IMG/VR virus record: IMGVR_UViG_3300037454_000146
Coordinates: 35,374 to 99,373 of that record
Origin: a virus
Direction: 5' to 3' (one strand)
Length of the DNA: 64,000 nucleotides
The position numbers and the translations under genes were made by a program. How positions within the stretch are numbered: the stretch's first letter is position 1; each line of letters opens with the position of its first letter. This document shows positions 42,502 to 63,343 of the stretch, in pieces. Under the pieces are notes generated by a model. That model did no database searches and was not told the DNA's origin. It saw only the letters and a program-made list of their open reading frames with translations.

Positions 42502-42557
42502 GTTAATTCCACCTTAAACATTTGATACGGGCATCCACCCGCCCTCTTGCGAGGATA

Positions 42558-42850: not shown

Positions 42851-42884
42851 TATCTCTTGTTAATTATTTTACTATCGTGCAAAA

Positions 42885-45740: not shown

Positions 45741-45794
45741 TCCTCCTCTATAACACTAACTACTTACCTTGTGAGCACAAAAACTAAGCGATTC

Positions 45795-46091: not shown

Positions 46092-46182
46092 TGTCATCCT
46101 CCTTATAAATTACTGTAAAATTCTCATTCTGCGTTTTGCCATATAGTTTGACCTGCAAAGGTGTAGCGTGGCAAATTTACAG

Positions 46183-46401
46183 TTAGTTGTCAGTATAAAG
46201 ACATATTTCTCCGTCACGTAGCTTCTGCAAGAATGCCAAACCCATTTCTTCCGAAATGTCCGACAGTCTTGTTTTGTCATAATAATCCAACAGAGCACTA
46301 TAAGCGTCAGTCTGCGCCTCATCTCTGGAATATGCCTTTATTGCAATAGTTGTTTCGTGCGTCACTGTCCCACCAACTCCTTTATCGAATAAAAATCGCA
46401 T
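46183..46401 (-). CDS. hypothetical protein
   Basis: 72-aa ORF. Preferred over the overlapping 46110..46322 frame. Confidence 0.4.
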   Translation of the reverse strand: MRFLFDKGVGGTVTHETTIAIKAYSRDEAQTDAYSALLDYYDKTRLSDISEEMGLAFLQKLRDGEICLYTDN

Positions 46402-46628
46402 TTTGTTATATCTCCGTTACAGGAACATGATTCCTGTTCTCTTGTGCCAATACACACTCCTTTACGCCAGCACTTACACTTTTGCTTACGAATCCACTCC
46501 ATTGCCATATCATCAGTAATAGGGGAGAGGTCATTATCATCTATGTTGAAGTATTTTAACAACTTACGTAAAGCAGAACCTTTCTCGTCGCCCTGTTTCA
46601 TTACGAGCTTCAGCACTTCAATCGTCAT
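46362..46628 (-). CDS. hypothetical protein
   Basis: 88-aa ORF overlapping the upstream stop. Confidence 0.45.
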   Translation of the reverse strand: MTIEVLKLVMKQGDEKGSALRKLLKYFNIDDNDLSPITDDMAMEWIRKQKCKCWRKGVCIGTREQESCSCNGDITKCDFYSIKELVGQ

Positions 46629-46956
46629 GTGACCACCCTCCCAAATCTTCCAGTCTCAGTTTAGCAGCGTAAGCCGACAACTTAGTGGGGCAGCCCTCTC
46701 CAAAGGTTATATTGTAATAAGGACAATCTTCGCAATCCTCATCGCCACGCACGCAGGTCACGGCGGCTCTCAAGGTTTCTATAAGCTCCTTTTTATAAGC
46801 ATTGCGCTCTGCCTCTAACTCAAACATCTCTTTCGCGGTTTCCTGCGCCATTGTGTCAACGGCTTTTAGATAACCCTCTCGGAACGCTTCTTCTTTTGCT
46901 TGTTTTATGTACGCCTGTATCTCAGGTTCAGTCATAAATTTACCGTCAATCCACAT
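46618..46956 (-). CDS. hypothetical protein
   Basis: 112-aa ORF; its ATG overlaps the upstream stop. Confidence 0.45.
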   Translation of the reverse strand: MWIDGKFMTEPEIQAYIKQAKEEAFREGYLKAVDTMAQETAKEMFELEAERNAYKKELIETLRAAVTCVRGDEDCEDCPYYNITFGEGCPTKLSAYAAKLRLEDLGGWSHDD

Positions 46957-47186
46957 TAAGACTCACCTCCAGTCTGCGGATAGTATTCCGAAGCCAAGTG
47001 TTGCTCTCTAACAGCAATATAAATGTTGTCTCTTAAAACTGCAAAAGCAATAGAACTTCTATTATCGTGATTTATTGCAACTATCATATCGTCCTCTGTC
47101 TTGATTTCGTCTATCCCATAGCTTTTACACAATCCAGCCAAATCGGATAGAAAACCTTTGTGCACCTCTTTCAAAGTTTCTTTCAT
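46956..47186 (-). CDS. hypothetical protein
   Basis: 76-aa ORF. Confidence 0.45.
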   Translation of the reverse strand: MKETLKEVHKGFLSDLAGLCKSYGIDEIKTEDDMIVAINHDNRSSIAFAVLRDNIYIAVREQHLASEYYPQTGGES

Positions 47187-47190
47187 ATTA

Positions 47191-47373
47191 TCACCTACCT
47201 AAAAAACTTTCTATATTAGCACCACCTAAGAACATCATCAAAGAACCCCAAACAATCCAAAGCGTTCTTTGTAATTTGCCATTTTTGTTGGTAACATCAA
47301 GTCTGCTCCATAATATATTTATAGACAAACCTGAAATAACCTGAATAATACCAAGTATTATACATCGCATCAT
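47191..47373 (-). CDS. small membrane protein (two hydrophobic helices)
   Basis: MMRCIILGIIQVISGLSINILW...LWIVWGSLMMFLGG. Confidence 0.45.
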   Translation of the reverse strand: MMRCIILGIIQVISGLSINILWSRLDVTNKNGKLQRTLWIVWGSLMMFLGGANIESFLGR

Positions 47374-47858
47374 TATTGTTCCTCCTCATCAAAAATAATC
47401 TCGTAAATGTTTGTGTCTTGATACTGCCCGTCAAAAAATCCGCTGCCGTGTAGATGTCCTACGCACTGTCCACCGTATTCCTCAACAAGTCGCCTATACA
47501 GCCTATTGGCTCTCTCATTGTTTGCCCAAGCCCAAAACTCACATCTGCGTATGCCATTAGCGACCATCTTATTGATGTCTACCAAACAATCTCGCACAAG
47601 ATCGGCATTGTAATTCTTGAAGCCTATAAGTCCAAAGTTGTACAGGCTCTTGGATTGCCAATCTATTTGGTATGAAAAGTAACCATCTATGTCGCCATTA
47701 TCATCTAAGTGAACAAGGTCGTGTCGGTTTTCGTTATTGTCTGGGATTGTCAGCTCATACGCCGAGCCGCTAAAATAATACTTGTATCTTGGGTCGTACC
47801 AACAACCGATGAGCTTACGTTTAAGTTCTTCCTTATATAACTGCGCTGGGTAAAGCAT
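47373..47858 (-). CDS. GNAT-like acetyltransferase (tentative)
   Basis: 161 aa. C-terminal RRCEFWAWANNERANRLYRRLVEEYGG resembles the GNAT acetyl-CoA-binding region. Confidence 0.4.
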   Translation of the reverse strand: MLYPAQLYKEELKRKLIGCWYDPRYKYYFSGSAYELTIPDNNENRHDLVHLDDNGDIDGYFSYQIDWQSKSLYNFGLIGFKNYNADLVRDCLVDINKMVANGIRRCEFWAWANNERANRLYRRLVEEYGGQCVGHLHGSGFFDGQYQDTNIYEIIFDEEEQ

Positions 47859-47861
47859 TGT

Positions 47862-48005
47862 TCAATTCCACTCCTTTTGATATTCGTACCACGACTGACA
47901 ACCCTGATATGTGTCGTAAGCGTCGTAGTCATTCTGTATGCTATCCGTGTACACATCGGCACACGGCTCTGTTATGGTCTGCCTGTAAGCTGTGTAGTCA
48001 TCCAC
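47862..48005 (-). CDS. possible 47-aa acidic Tyr-rich peptide
   Basis: GTG 48005, 8 nt after AGGAGG, to TGA 47864-47862. Below the track cutoff and read by hand. Confidence 0.3.
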   Translation of the reverse strand: MDDYTAYRQTITEPCADVYTDSIQNDYDAYDTYQGCQSWYEYQKEWN

Positions 48006-48074
48006 CGTTTGCGCCTCCTTTCTAACTTTGTACTGTGCGAGGAAATAAAAATACCGTCCTCATCTTTCAAGAGT

Positions 48075-48103
48075 ATTATAACACTAATTTTCTACCTTGT
48101 CAA
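48075..48103 (-). promoter_or_regulatory. consensus promoter (phage promoter family)
   Basis: Minus strand reads TTGACAAGGTAGAAAATTAGTGTTATAAT. Confidence 0.65.
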
Positions 48104-48117
48104 GAGCTTTTTTAAAA

Positions 48118-48444
48118 TTATTTTGATTCTCCAACGACAGGGAACAAATGAATAGAAAGATTAGTAAATGGCTTTATTGCATAAAGATTTTCATTTGTTT
48201 TACGTAATTTCCAATCTTCTGACCATTCATTAAGATTATGTAACATATCTTTAGTATTATTAACAATTTCCATATACTTCACTTCAGTTTTAGCCTTTTC
48301 GGACAACTGTGCGTCACACCACTGACAGTAAAGCTCTCTGAGTTCTCGAAGCTCATCAGACTTCATACATCTCGAATGTATTTCCAAAATGCCCTCGCAA
48401 GTTTTTAAATCATGCTTTCTTATTTTTTCGTCGTAATAAATCAT
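48118..48444 (-). CDS. hypothetical protein
   Basis: 108-aa ORF; its ATG overlaps the stop of the Rep-like gene. Confidence 0.5.
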   Translation of the reverse strand: MIYYDEKIRKHDLKTCEGILEIHSRCMKSDELRELRELYCQWCDAQLSEKAKTEVKYMEIVNNTKDMLHNLNEWSEDWKLRKTNENLYAIKPFTNLSIHLFPVVGESK

Positions 48445-49361
48445 TATATCTCTCCTTCTTTAATTAAAAACGCATCACTTAACCCTGTAAGCTCCATGAT
48501 TTTTTCTTTATTAGCAAAAACGCTATACAATCTTGGGTTGACACATAGGAACTCCCTTAGTTTGTCGTTCTTAGTGTCTTTAACTGAAATAAGAATGCTA
48601 CGAGTGTCGCCATTGCGATCAGGATACTGTATCTTTAAGAGCTGATTTACGAATCGTCCCGAATGAGACACGTCAAGTCCGAGTTTCTCACATAATGTTT
48701 CAACAGTCATTTTTCGTACTTTGTCTTTGTCGGTTTCAAGAGGGTTCTCACACAAAACATTATAAGTGAGGTTGATATAAGGAACTATAACATATAAATA
48801 GCCGAGCATCTTATGCGACGATACCGTAGCATTCTCATAAAGGAATCTTACGGAATGAATAAATAACTTCGCAGCCACTTGGTTTTTATCTTTTGTCATT
48901 GTGCCTTTGCCAAACTTATCAAGTGGCAATCTAAATCCCACATCATCCTCTAATAAATAATTGTTTGCCCTTGCCTCTTTTAGGAAACGCATAAATGTTC
49001 TATTATCCAACTTCAAAACTTCTTGAATATTTTGCCTCGTCATAATTCTTCCATTATCAAAAGCAATATAATTGTCCTTGTTGATGTAAGTTGCCAAATA
49101 CACGAGGCGAGCCACTGTTGGGTTGATGATATTTGTGAAGTTCACCTCTAAAGGAACATAATAATTCCACACATAAGTGCCGCCATCGCCTACCGCACTA
49201 AGGAAGTCTTTTCTGTCCTGTTTCTCAATTTCAAAATGTTTAACTCCAAATTCTCTGCGAGCATCAATCTCCGCCTGAGACTGCACATTAACTACCTCAT
49301 CATCTTGCACGGGCTTCACTAAGCCGTTCTTCATTACGACCGCTTCTATGTCATTAGCCAT
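48444..49361 (-). CDS. putative replication initiator / replisome organiser (winged-helix type)
   Basis: 305 aa, first gene after the iteron-rich ORF-free region. Internal segments suggest two winged-helix units. Assignment is by context. Confidence 0.35.
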   Translation of the reverse strand: MANDIEAVVMKNGLVKPVQDDEVVNVQSQAEIDARREFGVKHFEIEKQDRKDFLSAVGDGGTYVWNYYVPLEVNFTNIINPTVARLVYLATYINKDNYIAFDNGRIMTRQNIQEVLKLDNRTFMRFLKEARANNYLLEDDVGFRLPLDKFGKGTMTKDKNQVAAKLFIHSVRFLYENATVSSHKMLGYLYVIVPYINLTYNVLCENPLETDKDKVRKMTVETLCEKLGLDVSHSGRFVNQLLKIQYPDRNGDTRSILISVKDTKNDKLREFLCVNPRLYSVFANKEKIMELTGLSDAFLIKEGEI

Positions 49362-50658: not shown

Positions 50659-50751
50659 GATCCAAGCCTCCAAACGCCTATTTATGGGCAATTATAAAGT
50701 TTGTGCAATTTTTTATTGTATTTTTTCAAATTTATGATTTTTTTGTGCTGA

Positions 50752-50846
50752 TTTATGCACTATGTACATAGTATAAGCTGATCCGCTTACATCCTGAAAC
50801 AGCCGACAGCCTGAATTTGGCTAGTTACCGTTTATGCACTATGTAC
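50752..50846. promoter_or_regulatory. operator repeats TTTATGCACTATGTACA (two copies)
   Basis: Copies at 50752-50768 and 50830-50846. The first contains the 14-bp palindrome ACTATGTACATAGT. A half-site, ACTATGTACAC, lies in the promoter spacer at 50889-50917. Confidence 0.5.
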
Positions 50847-50888
50847 AAAGTGTGCTATTGTTTGTGAGATATGCACAAATCGCCCAAC

Positions 50889-50917
50889 TTGAAACTATGT
50901 ACACAGTGTGGTATACT
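50889..50917 (+). promoter_or_regulatory. rightward early promoter
   Basis: TTGAAA, 17-nt spacer, TATACT, with an operator half-site in the spacer. Confidence 0.5.
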
Positions 50918-51409
50918 AAAATCACAGAAGAACGAAAGACACAAACAAAGCGGTCAGACAAACCGCAAAACATAAGCCAGTAAAGGTTAGCCAGAGTGAC
51001 CGACAAATGACAGTAACTTGAAAATTAAATAGCTCCGAATCGGTAATGTGAAAAGCCGATTGACCGCGAAAAGCTGAAAAAGCAAGTAACGCGATAATAA
51101 ACAGCCGAAAAGCCTTGACGGGATAAAGAGTAACTACCTCAAAGTCAAACGCCGATTAAGTGAGATAAAACGCGGAACGCCTAAAGCAAGTACAAAGAAT
51201 ATAAATGGAGCATAACGTAACAAGAGATACAACACGCCGATATTTTTTGAAAGTTTTTCACGGCAGTTAAGCCAATCAGAAAAACAGTACAAGTCTATTA
51301 TATCACGCTTGACTGCACAATGTCAAGCGATATCTGCCAAACAAGTTCAAGAGCTTGCAAGGCAGTCCAGAACAAGCAAATTAAATTAATATTTTAAGGA
51401 GGCATCATT

Positions 51410-51742
51410 ATGAAAGTTAATGTTACAAGAAAGTCTATCGCTCAGAACTATTATTGCAAATCCGCAGGATATTGTTCTTTACAGTATCTCTTTAGAGGCA
51501 TAGAGCCTAACTTCTACACACACGGCATTTACGGATGGAACTTCGACGCGTACACACACGGTAACAAATGCGTGACTACTGGATACCGTAACATGATAGG
51601 CGATTCAATCCCCTATGACGTATGCAAGAAGTATGAAGAATCCGCCGAAAAGATATGGAGCTATGAAAATAAAGCTACATATGACGAAAAGAGAAAAGCA
51701 GCGGATGAACTTCTTGAAAAGTTTTGGAATGAGGCATTCTAA
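51410..51742 (+). CDS. hypothetical early protein
   Basis: TAAGGAGG RBS. 110 aa. Confidence 0.55.
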   Translation: MKVNVTRKSIAQNYYCKSAGYCSLQYLFRGIEPNFYTHGIYGWNFDAYTHGNKCVTTGYRNMIGDSIPYDVCKKYEESAEKIWSYENKATYDEKRKAADELLEKFWNEAF

Positions 51743-51907
51743 TAAAATTCAAATTCAATGGTTTTTGACGGGCTGCACCATAAGCAACCCGATCCCATAC
51801 CGCTATTTTTGCAATTTTTTCGTGCGGACAAACTGAAAAATTACAAAACAATAGCGCGTTTGCAATAGTGAGCGCGTGACGACTGGAATATTTAAGGAGG
51901 TTATTTT

Positions 51908-52138
51908 ATGTATACAGAGAAGGAAAGAAAACAGCTTGAAAGAGCTTTAAAACGTGTTGAGAAGTGCAGCGGGGACTGTAAACATTGTGAAAAATGTCAT
52001 ATCTACACTTCAGAAAAATCTTTTTGCTATGCTATAGGATGCGACTTATTACCGCAAAATATGTTTGATATGATTGACGATCATATCACCACATTAAGAC
52101 AAACAGCTATTGACTTACTTAAATTTGAATTATCATGA
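51908..52138 (+). CDS. hypothetical Cys-rich early protein
   Basis: TAAGGAGG RBS. CSGDCKHCEKCH motif. Confidence 0.55.
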   Translation: MYTEKERKQLERALKRVEKCSGDCKHCEKCHIYTSEKSFCYAIGCDLLPQNMFDMIDDHITTLRQTAIDLLKFELS

Positions 52139-52153
52139 AATGGAGGTTTAATT

Positions 52154-52306
52154 ATGAAAAAATATCGTGTTGATGTTTATTCAAAGTTTAATGCTGATAT
52201 GCTTGTAAGTCGAAATTATGTGTTTTTTATGACTGAGTCAGAAGCTATTGAGTACGGAAATTCCATTGCTAATGGCAATACAGTAAACGTTATTGAAGTA
52301 AAATAA
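52154..52306 (+). CDS. hypothetical 50-aa early protein
   Basis: TGGAGG RBS at 52141. Read by hand (MKKYRVDVYSKFNADML...). Confidence 0.4.
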   Translation: MKKYRVDVYSKFNADMLVSRNYVFFMTESEAIEYGNSIANGNTVNVIEVK

Positions 52307-52407
52307 AATCAAAGTTTCAAATGCTTTTCAAGTGTATCAGCGGAAAAGTTGATACACTTCATAAAGCACTTGAAAAGTGCTAATATTGGAAAATCGGAGG
52401 CGATTAT

Positions 52408-52572
52408 ATGACCATTACAAGAATAATCGACAAATACAATCCGCATAAAGTATGGATTATTAAGCGGACAAAATGCGGTCACTTTTATGTCAATCAGGAA
52501 ATATGCGGACGGAAATTTTATACAGCTTTTCAGCGTATGACAAAAAGATATATTAAGGAGGTATTATCATGA
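52408..52572 (+). CDS. hypothetical 54-aa early protein
   Basis: CGGAGG RBS. Its stop overlaps the next ATG (ATGA). Confidence 0.4.
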   Translation: MTITRIIDKYNPHKVWIIKRTKCGHFYVNQEICGRKFYTAFQRMTKRYIKEVLS

Positions 52573-52793
52573 ATACTATGGAAAAATTAAATGCTATGTC
52601 AATTATAAGCAAGTACGCACAAACCAAAAGGGAAAATTTGTATAACAATTCTCTTATGAAGGATGAGATCAAAAACATTATTGTATCATATGTAACCGAG
52701 ACGGAAAATTTATTCAAAAAAGATTTTATTACACTGGATGAGGCTGTAATGCGTATTGCAATGGCAGCGAGCTATGCGCTTGAAAATGCATAA
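52569..52793 (+). CDS. hypothetical early protein
   Basis: TAAGGAGG RBS. 74 aa. Confidence 0.55.
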   Translation: MNTMEKLNAMSIISKYAQTKRENLYNNSLMKDEIKNIIVSYVTETENLFKKDFITLDEAVMRIAMAASYALENA

Positions 52794-52892
52794 CGGAAAA
52801 ATAAAGCGGTTTTCTAAAGAGTTTTCCGCACAAAAAAGCTCTATTCCATACAGAAAAAACCACATAAAACACATATTCTAAAGGAGGTCATT

Positions 52893-53030
52893 ATGGAAAA
52901 ATGGTATGCTTTAATGCAATGTGGCATAGTCTACGAAGTGTTACATTGTACGGAAAATCAGATCAAATTAAAAGCAGCCCGATACAATCAGCAATCGGAA
53001 AAATTTTACTGGAGCTATGAAGAAGTATAA
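52893..53030 (+). CDS. hypothetical 45-aa early protein
   Basis: AAAGGAGGTC RBS. Read by hand. Confidence 0.4.
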   Translation: MEKWYALMQCGIVYEVLHCTENQIKLKAARYNQQSEKFYWSYEEV

Positions 53031-53036
53031 TAATTA

Positions 53037-53065
53037 TTGACATATCGAATGATATGTGATATTAT
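53037..53065 (+). promoter_or_regulatory. sigma-A-type promoter with extended -10
   Basis: TTGACA, 17-nt spacer ending in TGA, then TATTAT. Confidence 0.5.
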
Positions 53066-53100
53066 GGAACTATAGCAACGGAAAATTCAAGGAGGCGACT

Positions 53101-53352
53101 ATGGAAAAATATTGCATATATCACGCACGTGGCATTTTTACGGAGTCAACTGCATATGCGGAAAAATCGCAAACAGAAATACTGGATGATATTCTTGCAA
53201 GCTATCCTGCATTTGTGCAGCTTGCAAACTTTGATTCAGAAGCAGAAGCGGAAAAAGCATATAGCAAATACAATAACAATATATCAATACGGAAAAATGG
53301 TGACGGAGTTATCATAAACTATAACATCTACACGATCAAAGCGGAAAATTGA
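53101..53352 (+). CDS. hypothetical early protein
   Basis: ATG 53101 after CAAGGAGG. The track gives 53056. Confidence 0.5.
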   Translation: MEKYCIYHARGIFTESTAYAEKSQTEILDDILASYPAFVQLANFDSEAEAEKAYSKYNNNISIRKNGDGVIINYNIYTIKAEN

Positions 53353-53402
53353 ACAGAAAATTTGCACAAGTTTTCAGTCGGAAATTTGTGCAGAATCCAT
53401 AC

Positions 53403-53431
53403 TTGACAGAGTATAAAATTTGTGATATACT
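53403..53431 (+). promoter_or_regulatory. sigma-A-type promoter (phage promoter family)
   Basis: TTGACAGAGTATAAAATTTGTGATATACT. Confidence 0.5.
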
Positions 53432-53515
53432 ATAATCACAGGGAAAATCCCTGAATAGTTATGCCCTAACAAAGTAAGAAATTAAATGAAAAGTGTATTT
53501 TAAGGAGGTCTATTT

Positions 53516-53860
53516 ATGAATAATTATTTTGAAAAGGTACAGGAAATAGCGGAAAATTTAGGCTGGAATGTTGAAATTCAGGATAATATTGCTATATTCC
53601 AAAGGTATAGCGGATGCGGTCAGGACTTCAATATTGAGCTTGACATAGCGGAAACTTCAGATGAATTTGCGGATAATCTTTATAACTACTATAGCGAATT
53701 TGACGTATCGTATGAAGCTTATCTATGGTTAGATAGCACTGGTCATGGAACTAATGGAGCACCATATGAAATGATAGATGTATACAACGATATGAAAGAA
53801 TGTGAAGAAGCTATACATGAGTTATGGGCGGAAATTCACAACACAGATTTTGATGAATAA
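53516..53860 (+). CDS. strongly acidic early protein (DNA-mimic candidate)
   Basis: 114 aa with 27 Asp/Glu and 3 Lys/Arg by my count. TAAGGAGGTC RBS. Confidence 0.55.
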   Translation: MNNYFEKVQEIAENLGWNVEIQDNIAIFQRYSGCGQDFNIELDIAETSDEFADNLYNYYSEFDVSYEAYLWLDSTGHGTNGAPYEMIDVYNDMKECEEAIHELWAEIHNTDFDE

Positions 53861-53887
53861 AAGAGTGATTTAAAGGAGGTCGGAAAA

Positions 53888-54145
53888 ATGAAAATGTATA
53901 CAGAGCTTGAAATAGCTGAAATAATAGGTGATGCCAATACGGAAAAAGCAATTGAAAAAGCTTTATCTGATATACCACATGAACGATCAAAAGAATGTGA
54001 TTATTACAATATATATATTCCTTATCGCTGTAATGGCTGTATTAGGGTATATCTGGAAAAACGAGGTACACACAAATATTCAAGAATACAGCGACTTGTA
54101 AACACTACATTTAAGTATAGCGGAACGCCTGTATTTTTTGGTTAA
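53888..54145 (+). CDS. hypothetical early protein
   Basis: AAAGGAGGTC RBS. 85 aa. Confidence 0.55.
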   Translation: MKMYTELEIAEIIGDANTEKAIEKALSDIPHERSKECDYYNIYIPYRCNGCIRVYLEKRGTHKYSRIQRLVNTTFKYSGTPVFFG

Positions 54146-54238
54146 TCATACGGAAAAAGCTTGACGGGGAGCTTACAATTCCCGTCACCATAGACGATAA
54201 ACCACAAACCACAACGGAAAATTAAGGAGGTCAAAATT

Positions 54239-54508
54239 ATGAACGGAAATTTTATTGAAGCTAATCACAGTCGAGCAGTATTACATCTTGATAAGAGTAC
54301 AGCGGAAAAATTAAACAGAATCGCACCAAAGGGATGCCCATTTGATGATTATACTTTCCTTGACTTACTGAAGGATTATGTATGGCAGTACGATTGGTTA
54401 GTGCAGGGAAAAATGAGCGTTATTAACTTCATAAACATGATTAGCAATAAGAGCTATAACGCTTATGTGTACGGAAAAACAATTATTGAAGTGATTCAGG
54501 AGGCATGA
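54239..54508 (+). CDS. hypothetical early protein
   Basis: TAAGGAGGTC RBS. 89 aa. Confidence 0.55.
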   Translation: MNGNFIEANHSRAVLHLDKSTAEKLNRIAPKGCPFDDYTFLDLLKDYVWQYDWLVQGKMSVINFINMISNKSYNAYVYGKTIIEVIQEA

Positions 54509-54711
54509 CTATGAAAACATCTTGTATATGCAGCGCACCTACAAAAGCCGATTTGGAAAAGCAGATCAACAACTACTTCTTATCGGAAAACTATGTTATC
54601 ACAGACGATAACAGGGTATACAACACCAAAACGGAAAAGTATTGGAGTTCTGAAGCTGCTATAATAGTTGAGCGCAAAGGCAGATGGCAGTTCAGAAGGA
54701 TTGAGAGCTAA
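54505..54711 (+). CDS. hypothetical early protein
   Basis: ATGA overlap with the upstream gene. 68 aa. Confidence 0.5.
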   Translation: MTMKTSCICSAPTKADLEKQINNYFLSENYVITDDNRVYNTKTEKYWSSEAAIIVERKGRWQFRRIES

Positions 54712-54742
54712 ATAAAATGACTGTTTAAAGGAGGAAATTATC

Positions 54743-55432
54743 ATGTTAAATGAAATGATTAAAGAATATAAAGAGCTTATGACTTCTCTTAATGAGATCA
54801 AGGAAAAAGCAGATACTATGCACAAGGAAATGTTTAAGACAGATATTAAAGACAGACTTGCCGACAAAAACAACTGGAAAAAGCAGCTTGATGAATATGC
54901 TGAAATGGAAAAGTGTGTAAAGCACAAACAAGAATATCTGTACATTTTTCAGTATAACATATTCAATACTTTCATAGTAGAGAATATGGAAACTATGATG
55001 GGAATTATAAACAAGTATGCTAATAAACCCATTGGGGAAAAACGTAGAAGAAACTTATACGATGAGCTTTACGCTCTTATTCCAAAAGAAGTTGTTTACA
55101 CTTTCGGCATAAATGTCAAATACGGAACTTTCGGCGGAATAGAAATATACCTTGATTACAAAAACAATCGTCATTGGGTATGGATAATTGATGATAAAGA
55201 AGGCAATACCTATTCAGAACTAACCGAGGAAAAGACGATTGATATAATCAGCAAGGCGAAGGGAAAAATCATTGACGATATTGACAAGTATATTGCTGAT
55301 ACTTATGAAAAAATAGCGATCCTTAATGGAAAAATTGAAGAAGTCGAAAAGCTGTATTCAGAAGTTAGGGATGCAGCCAGTGAAATGAATATATGGTCGT
55401 ATGATACAACTGTAAAGAAGTATAGAACATAA
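54743..55432 (+). CDS. hypothetical early protein (229 aa)
   Basis: AAAGGAGG RBS. N-terminal coiled-coil. Confidence 0.55.
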   Translation: MLNEMIKEYKELMTSLNEIKEKADTMHKEMFKTDIKDRLADKNNWKKQLDEYAEMEKCVKHKQEYLYIFQYNIFNTFIVENMETMMGIINKYANKPIGEKRRRNLYDELYALIPKEVVYTFGINVKYGTFGGIEIYLDYKNNRHWVWIIDDKEGNTYSELTEEKTIDIISKAKGKIIDDIDKYIADTYEKIAILNGKIEEVEKLYSEVRDAASEMNIWSYDTTVKKYRT

Positions 55433-55526
55433 AAGTAAACGCTTGTACTTGCCTATAATGGTCAGAGCTTATAGGCAATGACAAACGCTTAGCGGAAAAT
55501 TAAAACGTATACAGGAGGTCGATATT

Positions 55527-55790
55527 ATGACAAATAAGGTAAAGGAAAACGCATATTCAGATTGGTTTGATATGATATTCAAATCATGGACATGGGAAAA
55601 GTTGACGGACAATGAGCGCACCGTATTTGTAGATCAGATGGATTCATGGTGCAATTGCAGAGGACTTCTCATTGGTACATACAAGCAGCGATGGGAAATC
55701 TTAAACGAGATGTATCACATATATCTGTTAGGCGTGGGATATGATTCACCTAATTGGAGAGACAACGCAGAGGAAAATCCAAAGTTTTAA
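55527..55790 (+). CDS. hypothetical early protein
   Basis: CAGGAGGTC RBS. 87 aa. Confidence 0.55.
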   Translation: MTNKVKENAYSDWFDMIFKSWTWEKLTDNERTVFVDQMDSWCNCRGLLIGTYKQRWEILNEMYHIYLLGVGYDSPNWRDNAEENPKF

Positions 55791-55803
55791 GGAGGTCAAT
55801 GTT

Positions 55804-56148
55804 ATGTTATCATTCAAACACATTTACAATGCGGAAAAAGCAAAGGCAGTATGCGATATGTATACTGATATTGAAAAGACTTTTGATAAAGATGGTGGGA
55901 AAATCTGGACAATGACAGCACATTTCTGGAATAACACACATAAAGTCAAGGTTATACAGGCAGCAAGCGGAGATTATCAGTACAAAATTGATGAGGGAAA
56001 TTTTGTGTGCAGTTTTGACGGAGATCAAATAACCATTAAAGAGGGCGTATATAACGGCAGAAAATGCAAGGCAGACAGCAATTTAAAGAAGTTTGAAAAC
56101 ATTTCAATGATGTTATATGCACTTGTGAAGTGCGGAAAATTAAACTGA
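55804..56148 (+). CDS. hypothetical early protein
   Basis: ATG 55804 after TAAGGAGGTC. The track gives 55741. Confidence 0.5.
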   Translation: MLSFKHIYNAEKAKAVCDMYTDIEKTFDKDGGKIWTMTAHFWNNTHKVKVIQAASGDYQYKIDEGNFVCSFDGDQITIKEGVYNGRKCKADSNLKKFENISMMLYALVKCGKLN

Positions 56149-56154
56149 GGAGGC

Positions 56155-56439
56155 ATGAATATGAATATCACGCTGAATGATTTGAGAGATATGTTTTGCA
56201 AGGCTACAAAGATAGTTCTTGTCAATGATGTATTCGACAAAGACGGAAATTACATAGACACTGAGAGAATCGAGATTAATAATCTGCTATGGGGTACACC
56301 TACATTCGGCGGAATACCCGTAGAGCTTTATCGTGTACAGGCGATAGGGAAAAATGCAGTTGAAGTAACCACAAATATGCCTAATAGAGTATTTGCAGCA
56401 TGGAAGGCATATGCAGAGGAAAATTCAGAGTACAATTAA
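56155..56439 (+). CDS. hypothetical early protein
   Basis: GAGGAGG RBS. 94 aa. Confidence 0.5.
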   Translation: MNMNITLNDLRDMFCKATKIVLVNDVFDKDGNYIDTERIEINNLLWGTPTFGGIPVELYRVQAIGKNAVEVTTNMPNRVFAAWKAYAEENSEYN

Positions 56440-56509
56440 ATAACACTTTTAAGGCGGACACTGGCGAAAAGAAATATGATGCAGTCACAAATTTTAAGGA
56501 GGTGTGATT

Positions 56510-56797
56510 ATGGCTACACTATTACAGGCAATACAGCTTGCAGAGCGATTGGAAAAGTCGCATATCAAGGTTCTGAAGTGGTTTATCCAGAACGGAAATT
56601 TTGAAGGCTCATACAGAGAGCTTGCCGAGAACATTTACGGAAATGCTAAGTATGCAAGCAACGTTCACAAGTACATAACCGTACTCGCAGATATGGGACT
56701 TCTGGTAGTCGCGGTCAATACAGAGTGCAATTGCTTTGATACAAAGCGCACATACATCTATCTGAATAAGGAGAGTGATTTAATTGACGGTAATTGA
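56510..56797 (+). CDS. hypothetical early protein (possible winged-helix)
   Basis: ATG 56510 after TAAGGAGGTG. Confidence 0.5.
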   Translation: MATLLQAIQLAERLEKSHIKVLKWFIQNGNFEGSYRELAENIYGNAKYASNVHKYITVLADMGLLVVAVNTECNCFDTKRTYIYLNKESDLIDGN

Positions 56798-56948
56798 GAT
56801 GTTGGAAAATCGGATAGCACAACATAGCGCAGCTCTATGCAGAGATTTGTCAGCCGAAGATCGCGCAAATATCACAGGCAGAATTGCAGAGGATAGGAAT
56901 TTGATATTCATTCTCACAGCCAATAAACAGATAAGTCGTGTAGAATAA
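56784..56948 (+). CDS. possible 54-aa protein
   Basis: TTG 56784, 8 nt after AAGGAGAG. Read by hand. Confidence 0.3.
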   Translation: MTVIEMLENRIAQHSAALCRDLSAEDRANITGRIAEDRNLIFILTANKQISRVE

Positions 56949-56969
56949 AAAGAAAAAGGGGAGACAATT

Positions 56970-57188
56970 ATGAGAATCGTAATCAATGGAAAATCGTATA
57001 AACTAAGAGACAATATTGCGATACGCCTACGGGGAATTGCTTTGGCTATTGTAGCGGTATTCTGCTTTATCGCAGACGTAGACACGGCAGGAATATTCTT
57101 TGCTGGACTCGCAGCGTTAATGCTATTCCCGTATGGTTGCTTGTATCGCATTGCAGAGAAAATTGTCGAGAGCGAAAGGAGAATGTGA
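56970..57188 (+). CDS. small membrane protein (two TM helices)
   Basis: GIALAIVAVFCFIADV and AGIFFAGLAALMLFPYG. Confidence 0.5.
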   Translation: MRIVINGKSYKLRDNIAIRLRGIALAIVAVFCFIADVDTAGIFFAGLAALMLFPYGCLYRIAEKIVESERRM

Positions 57189-57189
57189 T

Positions 57190-57306
57190 ATGTATGAAGC
57201 AGTAAAACACGAATTAGAACTAAGAGATACTAACCAGAGAGGTTTACTTGGAAATTTGAGTTACCTTGAAGTGTTATGTCTCGCATATAAATTACACATA
57301 TTTTAA
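57190..57306 (+). CDS. possible 38-aa peptide
   Basis: ATG 57190 after AAGGAGA. Read by hand. Confidence 0.3.
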   Translation: MYEAVKHELELRDTNQRGLLGNLSYLEVLCLAYKLHIF

Positions 57307-57320
57307 GGAGGAAAAATCAA

Positions 57321-58040
57321 ATGAATGCAAACGTAAACACACAGATTGACAACATGGTAGACAACAAAGAGGAAGCAATAAAACAATATTGTAATGACAT
57401 AATTAACTTCATACATCAAGACGTTAGCGGACTAAAGATAGCATGGAATATGTACTTAATAGAAGGATGCAAAGATAGAAATGTCGTGTACTTTATTGAA
57501 AATGCGGAAAATCATAATGTGAAGATAGGAAAAACAACTGATTTGATAACAAGATTAAAGAGACTACAGGATTGTGCGTCGCAAATTGGCATGCCTTTAC
57601 CCCACCTAAAATGCAGGTGTGTTATTTGTTGCTCTACTAAAAAAGAATGCCATGCGTTGGAAAAAGAACTGCATAATCGGTATAAAAGCAAGCGTTGTGT
57701 TGGGGAATGGTTTAATATTTCAATTGAAGAAATAAAAAAATATTTAGACAAATGTTATGCAGAGCCTATAATTATAAATAACATACTTGTATATTGTGGA
57801 CTTCCAGATGTTGAAGATATGGAAATGCCATTGATTATCGGAGATGACTACAATCGTTTTGTGGATTTATTGAATTACCTTAAAACTCATTCATTTGAAG
57901 AACATAATTTTTGGATAAAGAAATACTGTGGTATAACGTTTACAGAAGCAACTAATATTTATTGTCAATATAAGAATCGGAGATTGGATGATTTTATTAA
58001 AGATTTTTACGCGCCCTATCTTCCTAAAAATGACGAATAA
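57321..58040 (+). CDS. T5orf172 (GIY-YIG-superfamily) domain protein
   Basis: VVYFIENAENHNVKIGKTTDLITRLKRLQ...EKELHNRYKSKRCVGEWFNI matches the T5orf172/MUG113 pattern. Confidence 0.6.
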   Translation: MNANVNTQIDNMVDNKEEAIKQYCNDIINFIHQDVSGLKIAWNMYLIEGCKDRNVVYFIENAENHNVKIGKTTDLITRLKRLQDCASQIGMPLPHLKCRCVICCSTKKECHALEKELHNRYKSKRCVGEWFNISIEEIKKYLDKCYAEPIIINNILVYCGLPDVEDMEMPLIIGDDYNRFVDLLNYLKTHSFEEHNFWIKKYCGITFTEATNIYCQYKNRRLDDFIKDFYAPYLPKNDE

Positions 58041-58069
58041 AAGAAAAGCCCCTCACTAATCTGAGGGGC
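58041..58069. terminator. terminator hairpin between convergent genes
   Basis: GCCCCTCA/TGAGGGGC stem (58048-58055 with 58062-58069). The T-rich tract is on the minus-strand side. Confidence 0.55.
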
Positions 58070-58094
58070 AATATCACAGTCAGCAGAAGAACGT

Positions 58095-58436
58095 TTATTC
58101 TTCTTCTCCTTCTTTGATTGTGAGGTTGTTCACGCTAATATTATTCTCGCGGGCATAAATAGCGTCAGCTTTGATTTTTTTAATCTCATCATCGGACATT
58201 TCAAAGGCTTCAGCAATCTCATGAATTTCATCATCGCTCCATTGACCACTCGCCATCTCATCGAAAATGTATTTGCGGATTGCATTGGAAATTAGTTTGG
58301 CTTTGCTGATATTGAAATGAGCGCAATAAACACACGCGCCATTATAGGTGATTTGCTCGATATTAGCTTGAATCTTGGAGTAATGCTCTTTATTATACTT
58401 GTTGCTGGCTTTGATGTGAGCTTTTGTAACTGCCAT
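58095..58436 (-). CDS. putative ribbon-helix-helix regulator
   Basis: ATG 58436, 7 nt after AAAGGTGG. N-terminus KAHIKASNKYNKEHYSKIQANIEQ. Divergent from the promoter that carries its likely operators. Confidence 0.45.
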   Translation of the reverse strand: MAVTKAHIKASNKYNKEHYSKIQANIEQITYNGACVYCAHFNISKAKLISNAIRKYIFDEMASGQWSDDEIHEIAEAFEMSDDEIKKIKADAIYARENNISVNNLTIKEGEEE

Positions 58437-58470
58437 AAAAACACCACCTTTGTGCAAAAGTAACAATCTG

Positions 58471-58530
58471 ATAACCGTAATCTATGTTATCATTGTAGTA
58501 AAAATGTATTGCAAATAACCGTAATCTATG
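58471..58530. promoter_or_regulatory. two 16-nt direct repeats ATAACCGTAATCTATG (operators)
   Basis: Copies at 58471-58486 and 58515-58530. The second occupies all but the last base of the 17-nt spacer of the promoter at 58509-58537. Confidence 0.55.
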
Positions 58531-58537
58531 ATATAAT
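58509..58537 (+). promoter_or_regulatory. promoter of the integrase operon
   Basis: TTGCAA, 17-nt spacer, TATAAT. Confidence 0.55.
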
Positions 58538-58612
58538 GTAGCCATAGAAGAACGATTTCGTTCAATAATATTATACCATTTCCAATTGGAAATGTCAAGG
58601 AGGTCATGTAAA

Positions 58613-58882
58613 ATGAAGTTGTTTAGGAAATACATTCCGTTATGGGCAGAAAAACGCATAAAGGAATTGTACCGTGAGTGCATTAACGATGTAGTCCGCT
58701 GCCGTAAGGACGTGAACATCGAGGTTATGCTCAACGGAAAAATGGTGCTCGACAAAAAGACCGTAGAAAAACTCCGCAAGTATTCCTTCGCGGTGGGTGA
58801 GGTTGCGGCTCTTGAGGTAATGATGGACAGATTGTTTATCGAATACGATGATAAAGGAAAAATCAAAGAATTATATTTTTAA
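58613..58882 (+). CDS. hypothetical protein upstream of integrase
   Basis: ATG 58613, 7 nt after AAGGAGGTC. Confidence 0.5.
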   Translation: MKLFRKYIPLWAEKRIKELYRECINDVVRCRKDVNIEVMLNGKMVLDKKTVEKLRKYSFAVGEVAALEVMMDRLFIEYDDKGKIKELYF

Positions 58883-58894
58883 GGAGTGGTTGCT

Positions 58895-59821
58895 ATGCTA
58901 GCAAACGCAAAAGAACAGTGCAACATAATAGAGATGTTTCCGCAGAACAAGCCCGACTTCTCAGCGATGATCCCTCAGAGCATACTGCCTGATACCGAGA
59001 AGGAACTCAATGAAGTTATCAGCATAGAGGATAACATGGCGGACTCCGAAGGAATGGACGCTATGAATGAGTCTATATTTAATGGCATGATTGACTATCT
59101 ATTGGAAAAAGGCAAGACAAGAGATGCACTGATGTACGTATTACAGGCGAATTTCGGAATACGCCACAGTGATCTCATTAAGCTAAAGCTCATAAACCTG
59201 ATTGACGTTGACGGAAATTTCCGCGATAAAGTTAATTGGTGCGAGCAGAAAACAAGCAAAACTCGCCAGTATGTAATTAACGATGCAGTCAAAGCGGCGA
59301 CTATTATTTATCTCAGGACTCACGCAGATAAGAAGTTGACCGACTTCCTGTTCACGGCAGAGGGGAAAAATAAGGGATATAAGAAGGCAACCTATAAAGA
59401 CGAGAACGGAAAAGTCAAGGCACTTAGAGTGAACGGAAAATTTGTCTATGAGCGCGACGAGAACGGCAATCTTATTCCAGAACCGCTACGCAGAGATCAG
59501 GCGGAGAACACCTTGAAAGATGCTCTCATTGCCATAGGCGTAAAGCTGAAGAACGACAGACGTTGCAAAGATGGTGAGTACAAACTAAATACGCACAGCA
59601 ATCGGAAATTTTACAGCGAAAAGTTTAGTGAGGTTGCTTATGAGTTAAAGGCAAGTGGAAAGCTTAATGTGGATGCCGATGTGTTAGCATTGGTACAGCT
59701 TGATTTACGTCATAGCTCAATGCAGACTACGATGCGATATAACCACAGTTTTGATAGAATAAAGGAGGTTGTTTGTCGGAATATGAACATCGGTCTTTCC
59801 GTCTTGGAGAGATACCTTTAA
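58895..59821 (+). CDS. tyrosine recombinase / integrase
   Basis: GIRHSDLIKLK (Arg), NTHSNRKF (His..Arg) and LRHSSMQTTMRYNH (His...Tyr). Confidence 0.75.
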   Translation: MLANAKEQCNIIEMFPQNKPDFSAMIPQSILPDTEKELNEVISIEDNMADSEGMDAMNESIFNGMIDYLLEKGKTRDALMYVLQANFGIRHSDLIKLKLINLIDVDGNFRDKVNWCEQKTSKTRQYVINDAVKAATIIYLRTHADKKLTDFLFTAEGKNKGYKKATYKDENGKVKALRVNGKFVYERDENGNLIPEPLRRDQAENTLKDALIAIGVKLKNDRRCKDGEYKLNTHSNRKFYSEKFSEVAYELKASGKLNVDADVLALVQLDLRHSSMQTTMRYNHSFDRIKEVVCRNMNIGLSVLERYL

Positions 59822-62254: not shown

Positions 62255-62275
62255 CTAACTAAAGGAGGTTTGATT

Positions 62276-63343
62276 ATGATTTACAAGTTTAATGAGTATA
62301 TCGCTGCATTTCCGAAAAAGCCTGTATCAATTCTCAAGAAGTTTGAGAATGAACCCAAGAATCTGCACGAGATGTCAATAGAAGAAATCAATACCATCAT
62401 TGCAAGTTGGGGAGGCACAACTCCTGCGACGGCTATGAATCGCAAGAGCATGATAAAGCTGTATCTTAATTGGCTGGCTGAAACTGGTGTTTCTGTAAAG
62501 GCTAACCCAGAGGAAATCGTAGTCCCTGTCAAGAACGCAGAGTTCTTCATCTATACGGACGAGATTCTGCACGAATATTGGGATAGATATTTACAAAGCT
62601 GTGAGCGAGAAGCCGCTAAGTCGGGCGAGTTCCACAGCAGAGCAAGGTATCTCACAAGTTACGTATCAAATATCCTGTCTTTCTACGGGCTTACAGCTAA
62701 ACAAATTCTTGCACTTGACCTTAGTGACGTACAGTCAGATGGCATTGCTGGCTACAACATTTCTCTGACTCAGACGGACATTGATGTGCTGTTGGAGTAC
62801 AAGGGCTTAAATGAACTTGCTAATAATAAAAAGGTAAGCGGCACAAAGTATATAAGATCGGCTGGCACTGTAACCGAAGATACTCTTGACTACGGCATTT
62901 CACACGGGGCTTGCGGTGAAGATGTTAAGGCTTTAAAGCGCATACTAACCTGCAAGAACGTGTATAAGCTTGGTAGGTATGCGGAGATTTACGCAGAAGA
63001 AAAGCGTACAGGCAAACTCGTAGACCTCTCAAATAGAGCTATTCCCGCGGACTGGTTTATTAAGCAAATAGGACTAATAGTTGGCGGAGAAGTGAAGCCA
63101 GCGAGAATAACAGCCTATAAGAAAGACTATGAAGCATACCGTTCTGAGCGAATGGAGAGTGAGGCAAAGCAGAATATGCAACCAGCGACAAAGGTTGAAA
63201 AGCCTGTGGTTGCAGAGCAGAAGCCAGACGTAAGCGGACTGCTCGAAGCTCTCAAATATGTCGATGTGGCTATTGCCGAGGTTGATAAGATCAAGGTAAA
63301 TCTGCTTGGCATAAAGGCTCAGATTGCAAAGTTTGTTAAATGA
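62276..63343 (+). CDS. protein with integrase-like N-terminal (SAM-like) domain but no obvious catalytic RHRY set
   Basis: ATG 62276, 7 nt after AAAGGAGG. MNRKSMIKLYLNWLAETG resembles a core-binding domain. No HxxR...Y motif seen at the C-terminus. Confidence 0.45.
   Translation: MIYKFNEYIAAFPKKPVSILKKFENEPKNLHEMSIEEINTIIASWGGTTPATAMNRKSMIKLYLNWLAETGVSVKANPEEIVVPVKNAEFFIYTDEILHEYWDRYLQSCEREAAKSGEFHSRARYLTSYVSNILSFYGLTAKQILALDLSDVQSDGIAGYNISLTQTDIDVLLEYKGLNELANNKKVSGTKYIRSAGTVTEDTLDYGISHGACGEDVKALKRILTCKNVYKLGRYAEIYAEEKRTGKLVDLSNRAIPADWFIKQIGLIVGGEVKPARITAYKKDYEAYRSERMESEAKQNMQPATKVEKPVVAEQKPDVSGLLEALKYVDVAIAEVDKIKVNLLGIKAQIAKFVK

What the first reader, a model, noticed from the sequence alone, without database searches (positions are those of the whole stretch)
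52341..59440. Strand-specific, frame-independent over-representation of CGGAAAA in the rightward early region
**Count.** By eye I count 26 exact CGGAAAA on the plus strand between 52341 and 59440. Start positions: 52341, 52702, 52794, 52951, 52996, 53079, 53159, 53249, 53290, 53342, 53550, 53881, 53940, 54151, 54215, 54303, 54472, 54584, 54632, 55493, 55832, 56133, 57505, 58735, 59407, 59434. There are about 9 further CGGAAAT variants. Nineteen of the exact copies fall within 2.4 kb.

**Expectation.** For this base composition, a 7-mer of this makeup should occur less than once in 7 kb.

**Distribution.**
- I found no other plus-strand CGGAAAA elsewhere in the window.
- The ~50 kb of leftward genes contain only a handful of sense-strand CGGAAA.
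- Only one reverse-orientation copy lies inside the cluster (TTTTCCG near 52824).

**Coding phase.**
- 8 copies are intergenic, several just upstream of AAGGAGGTC ribosome-binding sites.
- 12 are in phase xCG-GAA-AAx.
- 5 are in phase xxC-GGA-AAA.
- 1 is in phase CGG-AAA-Axx.

The signal is therefore at DNA or RNA level, not protein level. It also forces NCG codons, which I would expect to be rare in a low-GC genome.

**Extended consensus and comparison.** The wider consensus is roughly W-R-CGGAAAA-W-T. This resembles the right half of the Firmicute CodY box (AATTTTCWGAAAATT) but with G in place of W. One copy forms the palindrome CGGAAATTTCCG near 59212.

**Possible roles.** A dense array of binding sites for a host or phage regulator or RNA-binding protein; a self or non-self mark for a nuclease or modification enzyme; or a pause or processing signal.
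Basis: seen in the sequence. Interest (0 to 1): 0.8.

Follow-up and report, generated by a model that had tools for sequence, protein, structure and literature searches.

The report
Polar GGAAA array in phage genome
An uncultured SPbeta-like phage puts the five-base word GGAAA every 70-90 bases on one strand of its early-gene block and has removed it from that same strand in the rest of its core genome, which points to an unknown direction-sensitive signal rather than chance or codon usage.

Summary
The count is exact: 26 CGGAAAA on the + strand at 52341-59440 and none elsewhere on that strand. Dinucleotide or codon shuffles predict 1.2-1.5.

CGGAAAA is only the local flavour. The selected unit is GGAAA followed by W-W-T.
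- There are 79-81 copies on + against 5-6 on -.
- Density is equal in coding and intergenic DNA.
- Synonymous third positions are recruited to make the word.
- Spacing is more even than random.

Relatives share almost no DNA in this block, yet carry the same array at 10-18 copies per kb.

New here: GGAAA is depleted 4-12 fold on the same DNA strand everywhere else in the core genome, whichever way the genes run. That covers the leftward late genes and the rightward replication genes. The opposite strand is neutral. GGAAA is the only 5-mer that behaves this way.

The phage is SPbeta-like and encodes a YonO-type RNA polymerase. By synteny, the array would be the last-packaged and first-injected DNA.

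The CodY idea fails. The mechanism is unresolved. My best guess is a polar signal read by a machine that runs one way along the whole genome (DNA translocation, the phage polymerase, or replication). An RNA-level early-transcript tag is the main rival.

The parts
52256..59661 (+). Array of about 80 GGAAA sites with consensus [C/T]GGAAA[A/T][A/T]T. Density is 13-14 per kb at 52-56 kb, falling to 6-7 per kb at 56-60 kb.
   Evidence: Sense-strand O/E is 3.7 (z 12.7) against codon permutation. Spacing CV is 0.54, and gaps under 20 nt number 2 against 13.8 expected.
52341..59440 (+). The 26 exact CGGAAAA copies of the original finding, a subset of the array.
50750..50920 (+). Putative rightward early promoter (TTGAAA ... 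TGtGGTATACT) with three TGTACA-core operator-like repeats. The array begins about 1.3 kb downstream.
   Evidence: Read directly in the sequence. A similar TGTACA-repeat promoter marks the far end of the array in relative L025.
51410..52306 (+). First three rightward ORFs (110, 76 and 50 aa). They have only 2 GGAAA and lie outside the dense array.
   Evidence: The same layout occurs in L131.
54743..55432 (+). 229-aa ORF, the only array gene conserved across relatives (at least 74% identity, no distant homologues). It carries 9-10 GGAAA in every homologue.
   Evidence: The fold is uninformative.
58886..59821 (+). Integrase-fold ORF (YopP-like by position). It is the last gene with high GGAAA density.
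1..49361 (-). Leftward late and polymerase operons. GGAAA is almost absent from the + strand here (6 sites in 50 kb) but neutral on the - strand.
   Evidence: Sense TTTCC 4 against 25.5 expected, sense GGAAA 59 against 73.6. Only the exact 5-mer is depleted. Both sub-operons show it. Relatives show it too.
42885..45740 (-). YonO-like single-chain two-barrel RNA polymerase (951 aa, motif ADFDSD).
62270..63343 (+). Integrase-fold ORF with a weak match to the N-terminal domain of MrpR, the SPbeta master repressor. It lies outside the array.
   Evidence: weak.

Best explanation
SHOWN. GGAAA(A/T) is a strand-specific cis-signal.
- Selection favours dense, even coverage (one site per about 65-90 nt) on the + strand of the early small-gene block.
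- Selection removes it from that same DNA strand in the rest of the core genome, whichever way the genes run.
- It is lineage-specific.

INFERRED.
- The phage is syntenic with SPbeta.
- SPbeta packages leftward from a pac site beside the divergent early promoters.
- By that synteny, the array would be the last DNA packaged and the first ejected into the cell, entering promoter-first.

MY COMMITTED GUESS. The array paces DNA translocation, either ejection into the cell or the end of headful packaging.
- Motif-rich DNA would be handled slowly or held, so the early host-takeover genes are exposed first.
- Stray copies on the tracked strand elsewhere would be costly and are removed.
- This would work like the two-step entry of phage T5, but with a sequence-encoded brake.

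The general polar-signal claim deserves about 0.6. The specific translocation mechanism deserves about 0.3.
For: - Enrichment is robust to dinucleotide and codon shuffles.
- Density is equal in coding and intergenic DNA.
- Synonymous positions are recruited.
- Spacing is even: CV 0.54-0.78 with a deficit of gaps under 20 nt.
- Relatives without DNA homology carry the same density.
- In the one shared gene, sites turn over while the count stays at 9-10.
- Same-strand depletion holds in the late module (4 against 47.1 expected) and the replication module (27 against 113), while the opposite strand is neutral at 0.81 and 1.17. GGAAA is the only such 5-mer among 869 screened.
- GGAAAA occurs 57 times in the array against 1 in the remaining 64 kb, where 14.7 are expected.
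- Evidence for SPbeta-type synteny.
- SPbeta's pac site lies between yonR and yonP, with leftward headful packaging (bioRxiv 10.1101/2021.11.22.469490).
Against: - No packaging or ejection machine is known to read a 5-mer.
- The pac site and packaging direction are inferred from a distant relative, not measured.
- The depletion is as strong as for restriction sites, which suggests a large cost per site. That fits cleavage or termination better than a small pause.
- The array matches the early gene class exactly and skips the first three ORFs. This is more natural for a gene-expression signal.
- In three embedded leftward ORFs the + strand density drops to about 3 per kb.
- SPbeta and PMBT24 share the architecture but lack any such motif.
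- Accessory genes after the array in L025-L027 are not depleted.
Confidence: 0.3

Rival explanations
1. RNA-level tag. GGAAA in rightward early transcripts is the target of a lineage-specific endoribonuclease or RNA-binding regulator. That factor shuts off or controls every early mRNA, as T4 RegB does at GGAG. Middle mRNAs on the same strand avoid the word so that they persist.
For: - The array coincides with the early gene class and with transcription-unit boundaries.
- Every stretch of about 200 nt carries a site.
- The co-oriented replication genes are depleted in sense.
- Embedded leftward ORFs have fewer + strand sites.
Against: - It does not explain the 6-12 fold depletion of GGAAA on the antisense strand of 50 kb of late genes while sense GGAAA there is neutral. 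That would need pervasive rightward antisense transcription.
- Sites are no more unpaired than control NNAAA words.
- Only about 10% are RBS-associated.
Confidence: 0.25
2. Signal for the phage's own YonO-like RNA polymerase. In this reading 5'-TTTCC-3' on the non-template strand pauses or terminates this hairpin-insensitive enzyme. The word is removed from everything the enzyme must traverse leftward. The early block is then a terminator field that stops it before pac and the early promoters.
For: - A YonO-like gene is present.
- YonO is hyper-processive, makes one very long late transcript, and lacks the domains that respond to hairpins (PMC5467207).
- TTTCC is nearly absent from the late sense strand, and T-runs are also low: TTTT 0.70, TTTTT 0.50.
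- Weak terminators acting cumulatively along a 50-kb operon would explain the strong depletion.
Against: - The polymerase would have to run antisense through the whole replication module, for no clear benefit.
- A terminator field need not be 7-15 kb long, nor densest at its far end.
- SPbeta and PMBT24, which have related polymerases, show no depleted or clustered word of this kind.
Confidence: 0.18
3. Replication signal. 5'-TTTCC-3' on the - strand is the pentanucleotide recognition site of the phage's T7-gp4-like primase-helicase, giving the primer pppGGAAA. Alternatively it is a polar fork barrier. In either case it is read on one template strand during unidirectional replication.
For: - A fused Zn-ribbon/Toprim/DnaB gene is present.
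- T7-type primases use strand-specific pentanucleotide sites and act as replisome brakes (my knowledge).
- The cumulative GC-skew minimum lies at about 50 kb.
Against: - Priming sites should be spread along the lagging template, not removed from it.
- GC skew is confounded with gene orientation.
- Neither the origin nor the replication direction is known.
Confidence: 0.1
4. Chi-like array that stops a host AddAB-type helicase-nuclease at the exposed DNA end. This would protect the incoming genome and limit CRISPR spacer capture.
For: It is a short, oriented, over-represented word near an inferred genome end. AddAB, Chi and phage injection are linked in the literature (my knowledge).
Against: - Under this reading the same-orientation copies elsewhere should be harmless, yet they are depleted.
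- + strand GGAAA has the wrong orientation for an enzyme entering at the inferred first-injected end.
- The first 4-5 kb to enter, including the promoter, would be unprotected.
- Clostridial control loci show no skew: O/E 0.9-1.7 and 0.6-2.1.
Confidence: 0.05
5. Ordinary composition effect: purine-rich, Glu/Lys-rich early genes, or binding sites for a host regulator such as CodY.
For: About half of the coding excess survives when the protein sequence is held fixed. Early proteins are somewhat richer in E, K and N.
Against: - Codon-permutation z is 12.7.
- Intergenic density equals coding density.
- Bacterial genes with similar usage reach only O/E 0.9-1.7.
- The CodY box is at chance level.
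Confidence: 0.02

Closest known systems
Chi sites (RecBCD/AddAB) and KOPS/SRS (FtsK/SpoIIIE) polar oligomers
   Same: Short, over-represented words with strong strand skew, read by a machine moving in one direction. Density can rise near a target locus.
   Different: Those are spread along whole bacterial chromosomes in the permissive orientation. Here the same orientation is removed everywhere except one 7-15 kb block. The word is only 5-6 nt. No translocase link has been shown.
Stoperators of mycobacteriophage L5 (cluster A)
   Same: Many asymmetric sites dispersed through a phage genome, including inside genes, with a fixed orientation.
   Different: Stoperators are 13 bp, number about 20-35 per genome, follow transcription direction in both arms, and bind the repressor. 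GGAAA is far denser, confined to one block, and its depletion ignores transcription direction.
T4 RegB endoribonuclease targets (GGAG in early mRNAs)
   Same: A short purine word enriched in early transcripts and under-used in later ones. It allows class-wide shut-off.
   Different: RegB sites sit mainly in Shine-Dalgarno regions. Here about 90% of sites are elsewhere, and the antisense depletion in late genes has no RegB counterpart.
T5 first-step-transfer DNA and the SPO1 host-takeover terminal repeat
   Same: A block of many small early genes of unknown function. It probably enters the cell first, ahead of the rest of the genome.
   Different: No repeated 5-mer array is known there. Entry order in this phage is inferred only by synteny with SPbeta.
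T7 RNA polymerase class II pause/termination signal (ATCTGTT)
   Same: A short, orientation-specific word recognised by a phage polymerase. It is avoided within transcription units and used at one special locus.
   Different: That is a single 7-nt site read by an unrelated single-subunit enzyme. Here there are 80-160 copies, and the polymerase link is untested.

Membership tests
CodY-binding sites | 15-bp palindromic box AATTTTCWGAAAATT | tested here: not met
   With up to 3 mismatches there are 8 hits against 8.4 expected, none inside 52-60 kb. Positions -7 to -2 of the motif are A-rich.
Chi (AddAB/RecBCD) | Oriented over-representation of a short word | tested here: met
   79-81 on + against 5-6 on - in the array, with O/E 3.7.
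Chi (AddAB/RecBCD) | Active-orientation copies are tolerated or favoured along the whole replicon | tested here: not met
   Same-strand O/E is 0.08 in late genes and 0.24 in replication genes.
Chi (AddAB/RecBCD) | The same word is skewed in the host chromosome and recognised by host AddAB | not testable with these tools
   The host is unknown. Unrelated clostridial loci show no skew.
KOPS/SRS translocase-guiding sequences | 8-mer enriched genome-wide in the permissive orientation, with the opposite orientation counter-selected | tested here: not met
   Here the orientation that is enriched locally is the one counter-selected elsewhere. The opposite orientation is neutral.
L5-type stoperators | About 13-bp asymmetric repressor sites oriented with transcription in both genome arms | tested here: not met
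   The information content is limited to about 5-8 nt. Sense-oriented sites are neutral in the late arm and depleted in the replication arm.
RegB-type early-mRNA nuclease targets | Word enriched in early transcripts and avoided in later transcripts | tested here: inconclusive
   The word is enriched in early genes and avoided in middle genes. It is neutral in late sense transcripts.
RegB-type early-mRNA nuclease targets | Sites concentrated in ribosome-binding regions, with cleavage demonstrated | tested here: not met
   Only about 10% of sites are RBS- or start-associated. Cleavage cannot be tested here.
T7-gp4-type primase recognition sites | Strand-specific pentanucleotide, with a fused primase-helicase present | tested here: inconclusive
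   The fused gene is present in the extension of the window. However, the sites are not spread along a template strand.
SPbeta-like phages (identity of the element) | YonO-type two-barrel RNA polymerase upstream of a long one-directional late operon | tested here: met
   BLASTP against SPbeta YonO gives E 5e-7, with a DxDxD motif. tblastn hits phage 'RdRP' genes. The gene order matches SPbeta.
SPbeta-like phages (identity of the element) | MrpR (YopR) master repressor and a pac site beside the divergent early promoters | tested here: inconclusive
   The MrpR N-domain match is below Pfam's cut-off and BLASTP gives E 0.004. The pac site was not located.

The most novel reading that the evidence does not exclude
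A previously unrecognised kind of genome-architecture signal in phages. It is a 5-6 nt word laid down as an evenly spaced one-strand array over the first-entering early-gene block, and actively cleared from that strand elsewhere. A direction-bound machine (ejection or packaging apparatus, or the minimal YonO-type polymerase) would read it to time or delimit the infection programme.
Probability: 0.4. Interest if true: 0.9.

Novelty: categorically new. Interest (0 to 1): 0.8.

Why it matters
The selection involved is as strong as restriction-site avoidance, yet it acts on one strand only and with opposite sign in different parts of one genome. That implies a sequence-specific reader that nobody has described.

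The stop signal in that process has been an open question since T5.

The method may also be useful more widely. Looking for a local array plus a same-strand depletion is a general way to find polar signals in uncultured phage genomes.

Tried and rejected
- CodY box: at chance level.
- Codon or composition artefact: rejected by shuffles and by bacterial control loci.
- Inherited repeats or paralogy: relatives share almost no DNA in the array.
- Helical phasing of A-tracts: no 10-11 bp period.
- BoxB-like hairpin-loop context: sites are no more unpaired than control words.
- Type III or Type ISP restriction evasion by site orientation: both orientations coexist, giving head-to-head pairs.
- Rfam: only tRNAs pass threshold.
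- DNA similarity to GenBank phages: none.
- Host identification via the 229-aa protein or TnpB: no relative for the first, and hits of at most about 60% identity in many Firmicutes for the second.
- Function of the 229-aa protein: no Pfam or PHROG match, AF2 pLDDT 69, no fold match.
- The same architecture in SPbeta and Enterocloster phage PMBT24: absent.
- Embedded leftward genes as a DNA-versus-RNA test: too few to decide.
- Walking further along a relative's genome: the contig ended.


Full report
OBSERVATION

No other + strand copy exists in 64 kb, and the - strand has three.

I defined 19 rightward genes by ORF plus ribosome-binding site and shuffled the 7.8-kb region three ways.
- Dinucleotide shuffles give 1.16 copies (maximum 5).
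- Permuting codons within each gene gives 1.45 (maximum 6).
- Permuting only synonymous codons, with intergenic DNA held fixed, gives 13.7.

So the excess is real. About half of the coding part comes from codon choice rather than protein sequence.

WHAT THE UNIT REALLY IS

K-mer tables show that the enriched core is GGAAA(A).
- GGAAA occurs 79 times on + and 5 times on -.
- GGAAAA occurs 57 times on + and once on -.

Aligning all sites gives [C>T]-GGAAA-[A 72%/T 25%]-[A/T]-T, with A-rich positions -3 and -2.

The preceding C is a local flavour. In the closest relatives the preferred base is T or A, while GGAAA stays at 103:0, 106:1 and 162:6.

Across 75 array genes in three genomes the density is 11.4 per kb in coding DNA and 13.0 per kb in intergenic DNA. 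All three phases are used. Only about 10% of sites sit in SD-spacer (GGAGGAAA) or start-codon (ATGGAAA) contexts.

In the array genes, the codon before GAA-A ends in G in 67% of cases, against 19% for third positions overall. In the late genes of the same phage the figure is 14%. This is selection on nucleic acid.

SPACING

Sites are more evenly spread than random placement.

| Region | Spacing CV | Gaps under 20 nt, observed / expected | Largest gap |
|---|---|---|---|
| Window | 0.54 | 2 / 13.8 | 192 nt |
| L001 | 0.65 | 6 / 24.8 | 229 nt |
| L003 | 0.78 | 5 / 30.7 | 375 nt |

- The largest gaps in the window and L001 are significantly smaller than random placement gives.
- There is no 10-11 bp periodicity.
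- Predicted RNA accessibility of the sites equals that of control NNAAA words, so they are not hairpin-loop elements.

RELATIVES

Loci found through the 229-aa array protein, and contigs carrying identical or related proteins, all show the same picture. They have 7-18 GGAAA per kb on the sense strand for 7-15 kb and almost none on the other strand.

These arrays share almost no DNA with the window beyond that one gene. The density is therefore re-created in unrelated genes, not inherited.

In the shared gene each of five homologues has 9-10 sites. Six are positionally conserved. The others are lost and regained nearby.

More distant phages that share only the 114-aa ORF have 1-3 per kb.

The array ends abruptly between co-oriented genes. 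In L025 it ends at a consensus promoter flanked by TGTACA repeats. In the window and in L131 it begins only after the first two or three ORFs downstream of the early promoter.

THE UNEXPECTED PART: SAME-STRAND DEPLETION

Outside the array, + strand GGAAA is nearly absent, with 6 sites in 1-50 kb.

Late genes (leftward):
- Sense TTTCC is 4 against 25.5 expected (z -4.8), while sense GGAAA is 59 against 73.6.
- The depletion is specific to the exact 5-mer. TTCC, TTTC and all one-base neighbours are near 1.
- It holds in both the structural operon and the polymerase operon.
- It holds in eight related late modules, with 7 observed against about 75 expected.

Replication module (rightward). A contig identical to the window extends it to 72 kb and shows Sak, SSB, a PD-(D/E)XK nuclease and a primase-helicase.
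- There it is the sense GGAAA that is depleted: 3/16.4, 5/18.7, 9/26.8, 3/10.2, 1/23.3 and 10/34.1.
- TTTCC there is neutral.

So the depleted strand is the same DNA strand in both modules, irrespective of gene direction.

Two unbiased screens confirm this.
- Among all 5- and 6-mers, GGAAA/GGAAAA is by far the most locally clustered word. GGAAAA occurs 57 times in the array against 1 in the other 64 kb, where 14.7 are expected.
- Among 869 5-mers that are not depleted on the opposite strand, GGAAA is the single outlier for one-strand depletion. Its O/E is 0.08 and 0.24, against 0.81 and 1.17 on the other strand. The runner-up is the overlapping TGGAA.

Bacterial control loci give O/E 0.9-1.7 for GGAAA and 0.6-2.1 for TTTCC under the same null.

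Accessory genes (TnpB, a dockerin protein and others) are neutral.

WHAT THE ELEMENT IS

The window is a siphophage with terminase, portal and tape-measure genes. It has very strong AAGGAGG ribosome-binding sites, tRNAs and extreme restriction-site avoidance.

The 951-aa leftward ORF carries ADFDSD.
- It matches phage genes annotated as 'RNA-dependent RNA polymerase'.
- It aligns with SPbeta YonO at E 5e-7.

Gene order mirrors SPbeta: exonuclease, polymerase, divergent control region, many small rightward genes, two integrase-fold genes, then replication genes.

What the literature says about SPbeta:
- YonO makes one very long late transcript, pauses little and lacks hairpin-responsive domains. 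Its promoter is unknown (PMC5467207).
- The pac site lies between yonR and yonP, and headful packaging runs leftward through yonO and the late genes (bioRxiv 10.1101/2021.11.22.469490).

If this holds here, the array is the last DNA packaged and the first ejected, entering promoter-first. This step is inference by synteny.

MECHANISM

Any model in which a site acts wherever it lies, relative to local transcription, fails. Co-oriented sites are depleted in the replication genes but neutral in the late genes, and the reverse holds for anti-oriented sites.

The simplest unifying idea is a reader bound to a process that runs one way along the whole genome. Packaging and ejection certainly do so. 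Rolling-circle replication and a run-on YonO-type polymerase may.

I rank the candidates as follows.
1. Pacing of DNA translocation: 0.30. The geometry fits, but there is no precedent for a 5-mer.
2. RNA-level early-transcript tag: 0.25. It best explains the match to the gene class and the need for a site in every short stretch. It cannot explain the antisense depletion in late genes.
3. Pause or termination signal for the phage polymerase: 0.18. It explains the strong depletion in a 50-kb operon. It requires antisense read-through of the replication module.
4. Primase or fork signal: 0.10.
5. Chi-like: 0.05.
6. Composition or CodY: 0.02.

SPbeta and Enterocloster phage PMBT24 share the architecture and a related polymerase. 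Neither shows a clustered or one-strand-depleted word of this kind. The feature therefore belongs to this uncultured lineage.

NOVELTY AND VERDICT

The feature fails the defining tests for CodY boxes, Chi, KOPS, stoperators and RegB targets (see the membership table). I know of no described system with a local one-strand array plus same-strand depletion. Two targeted literature searches found nothing similar.

The phenomenon is solid. The mechanism is open.

Noticed in passing
whole window, and relatives L108-L125: Extreme restriction-site avoidance. In 43 kb of late genes, GGCC, CTAG, CCGG, CCWGG, GAAGAG/CTCTTC, GAAGAC/GTCTTC, TTCGAA and CTGCAG all count 0, against expectations of 10-82. CGAAC is 1 against 34, and GATC is 32 against 134. 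The same holds in relatives.
   Followed up: partly
window 42885-45740 (-): A 951-aa YonO-like two-barrel RNA polymerase (ADFDSD motif) with no Pfam hit. It places the phage in an SPbeta-like architectural class. Cultured relatives of this gene include Enterocloster and Thomasclavelia phages.
   Followed up: partly
window 50750-50920; L025 10580-10660: Operator-like repeats with a TGTACA core (ATGCACTATGTACAnAGT) overlap a consensus extended -10 promoter. Similar repeats mark the promoter at the far end of the array in a relative. They may be the counterpart of SPbeta's SPBRE/MrpR sites.
   Followed up: no
window 50920-51409 (+): A leader of about 480 nt with no ORF. It is 41-46% A and only 12-25% T, and carries three GCCGAAAAGC-like repeats. 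It contains no GGAAA. It may be a regulatory RNA or a factor-loading region.
   Followed up: no
window 49413-49463: Two direct copies of TCGCCATTTTTGTCAC lie in the 1-kb non-coding stretch between the leftward operon and the early promoter. In SPbeta this is where the pac site lies.
   Followed up: no
window 52330-52362: The first CGGAAAA sits in the loop of an 8-10 bp hairpin (GTGTATCA ... TGATACAC), exactly where the dense array begins. Other sites are not in such hairpins.
   Followed up: partly
window 59949-61064 (+); L133 14921-16078; L025 16433-17575: IS605-family TnpB genes are inserted at different places in related phages: after the array, and inside the late operon. The best bacterial matches are only about 60% identical.
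   Followed up: partly
window 37521-37598 (-), 63492-63874 (+): The phage carries tRNA-Glu(UUC), tRNA-Gln(UUG) and two tRNA-Leu genes. tRNA-Glu reads GAA, the codon inside most in-frame GGAAA sites.
   Followed up: no
L025 11254-11799: A relative encodes a dockerin type I domain protein just after its array. This hints at a cellulosome-bearing (Ruminococcus-type) host.
   Followed up: no
PMBT24 (L129+L130), whole genome: In Enterocloster phage PMBT24, CTTGG is rarer on the late-sense strand (13 copies) than its complement CCAAG (33 copies), with about 51 expected for each. This asymmetry runs across oppositely oriented modules, but there is no local array. It may be partial restriction avoidance.
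   Followed up: partly
window 51764-51804 (+): A weak sub-threshold Rfam match to the RAGATH-5 ribozyme motif (27.8 bits against a gathering score of 50, E 0.43). It lies between the first two early ORFs and is probably chance.
   Followed up: no
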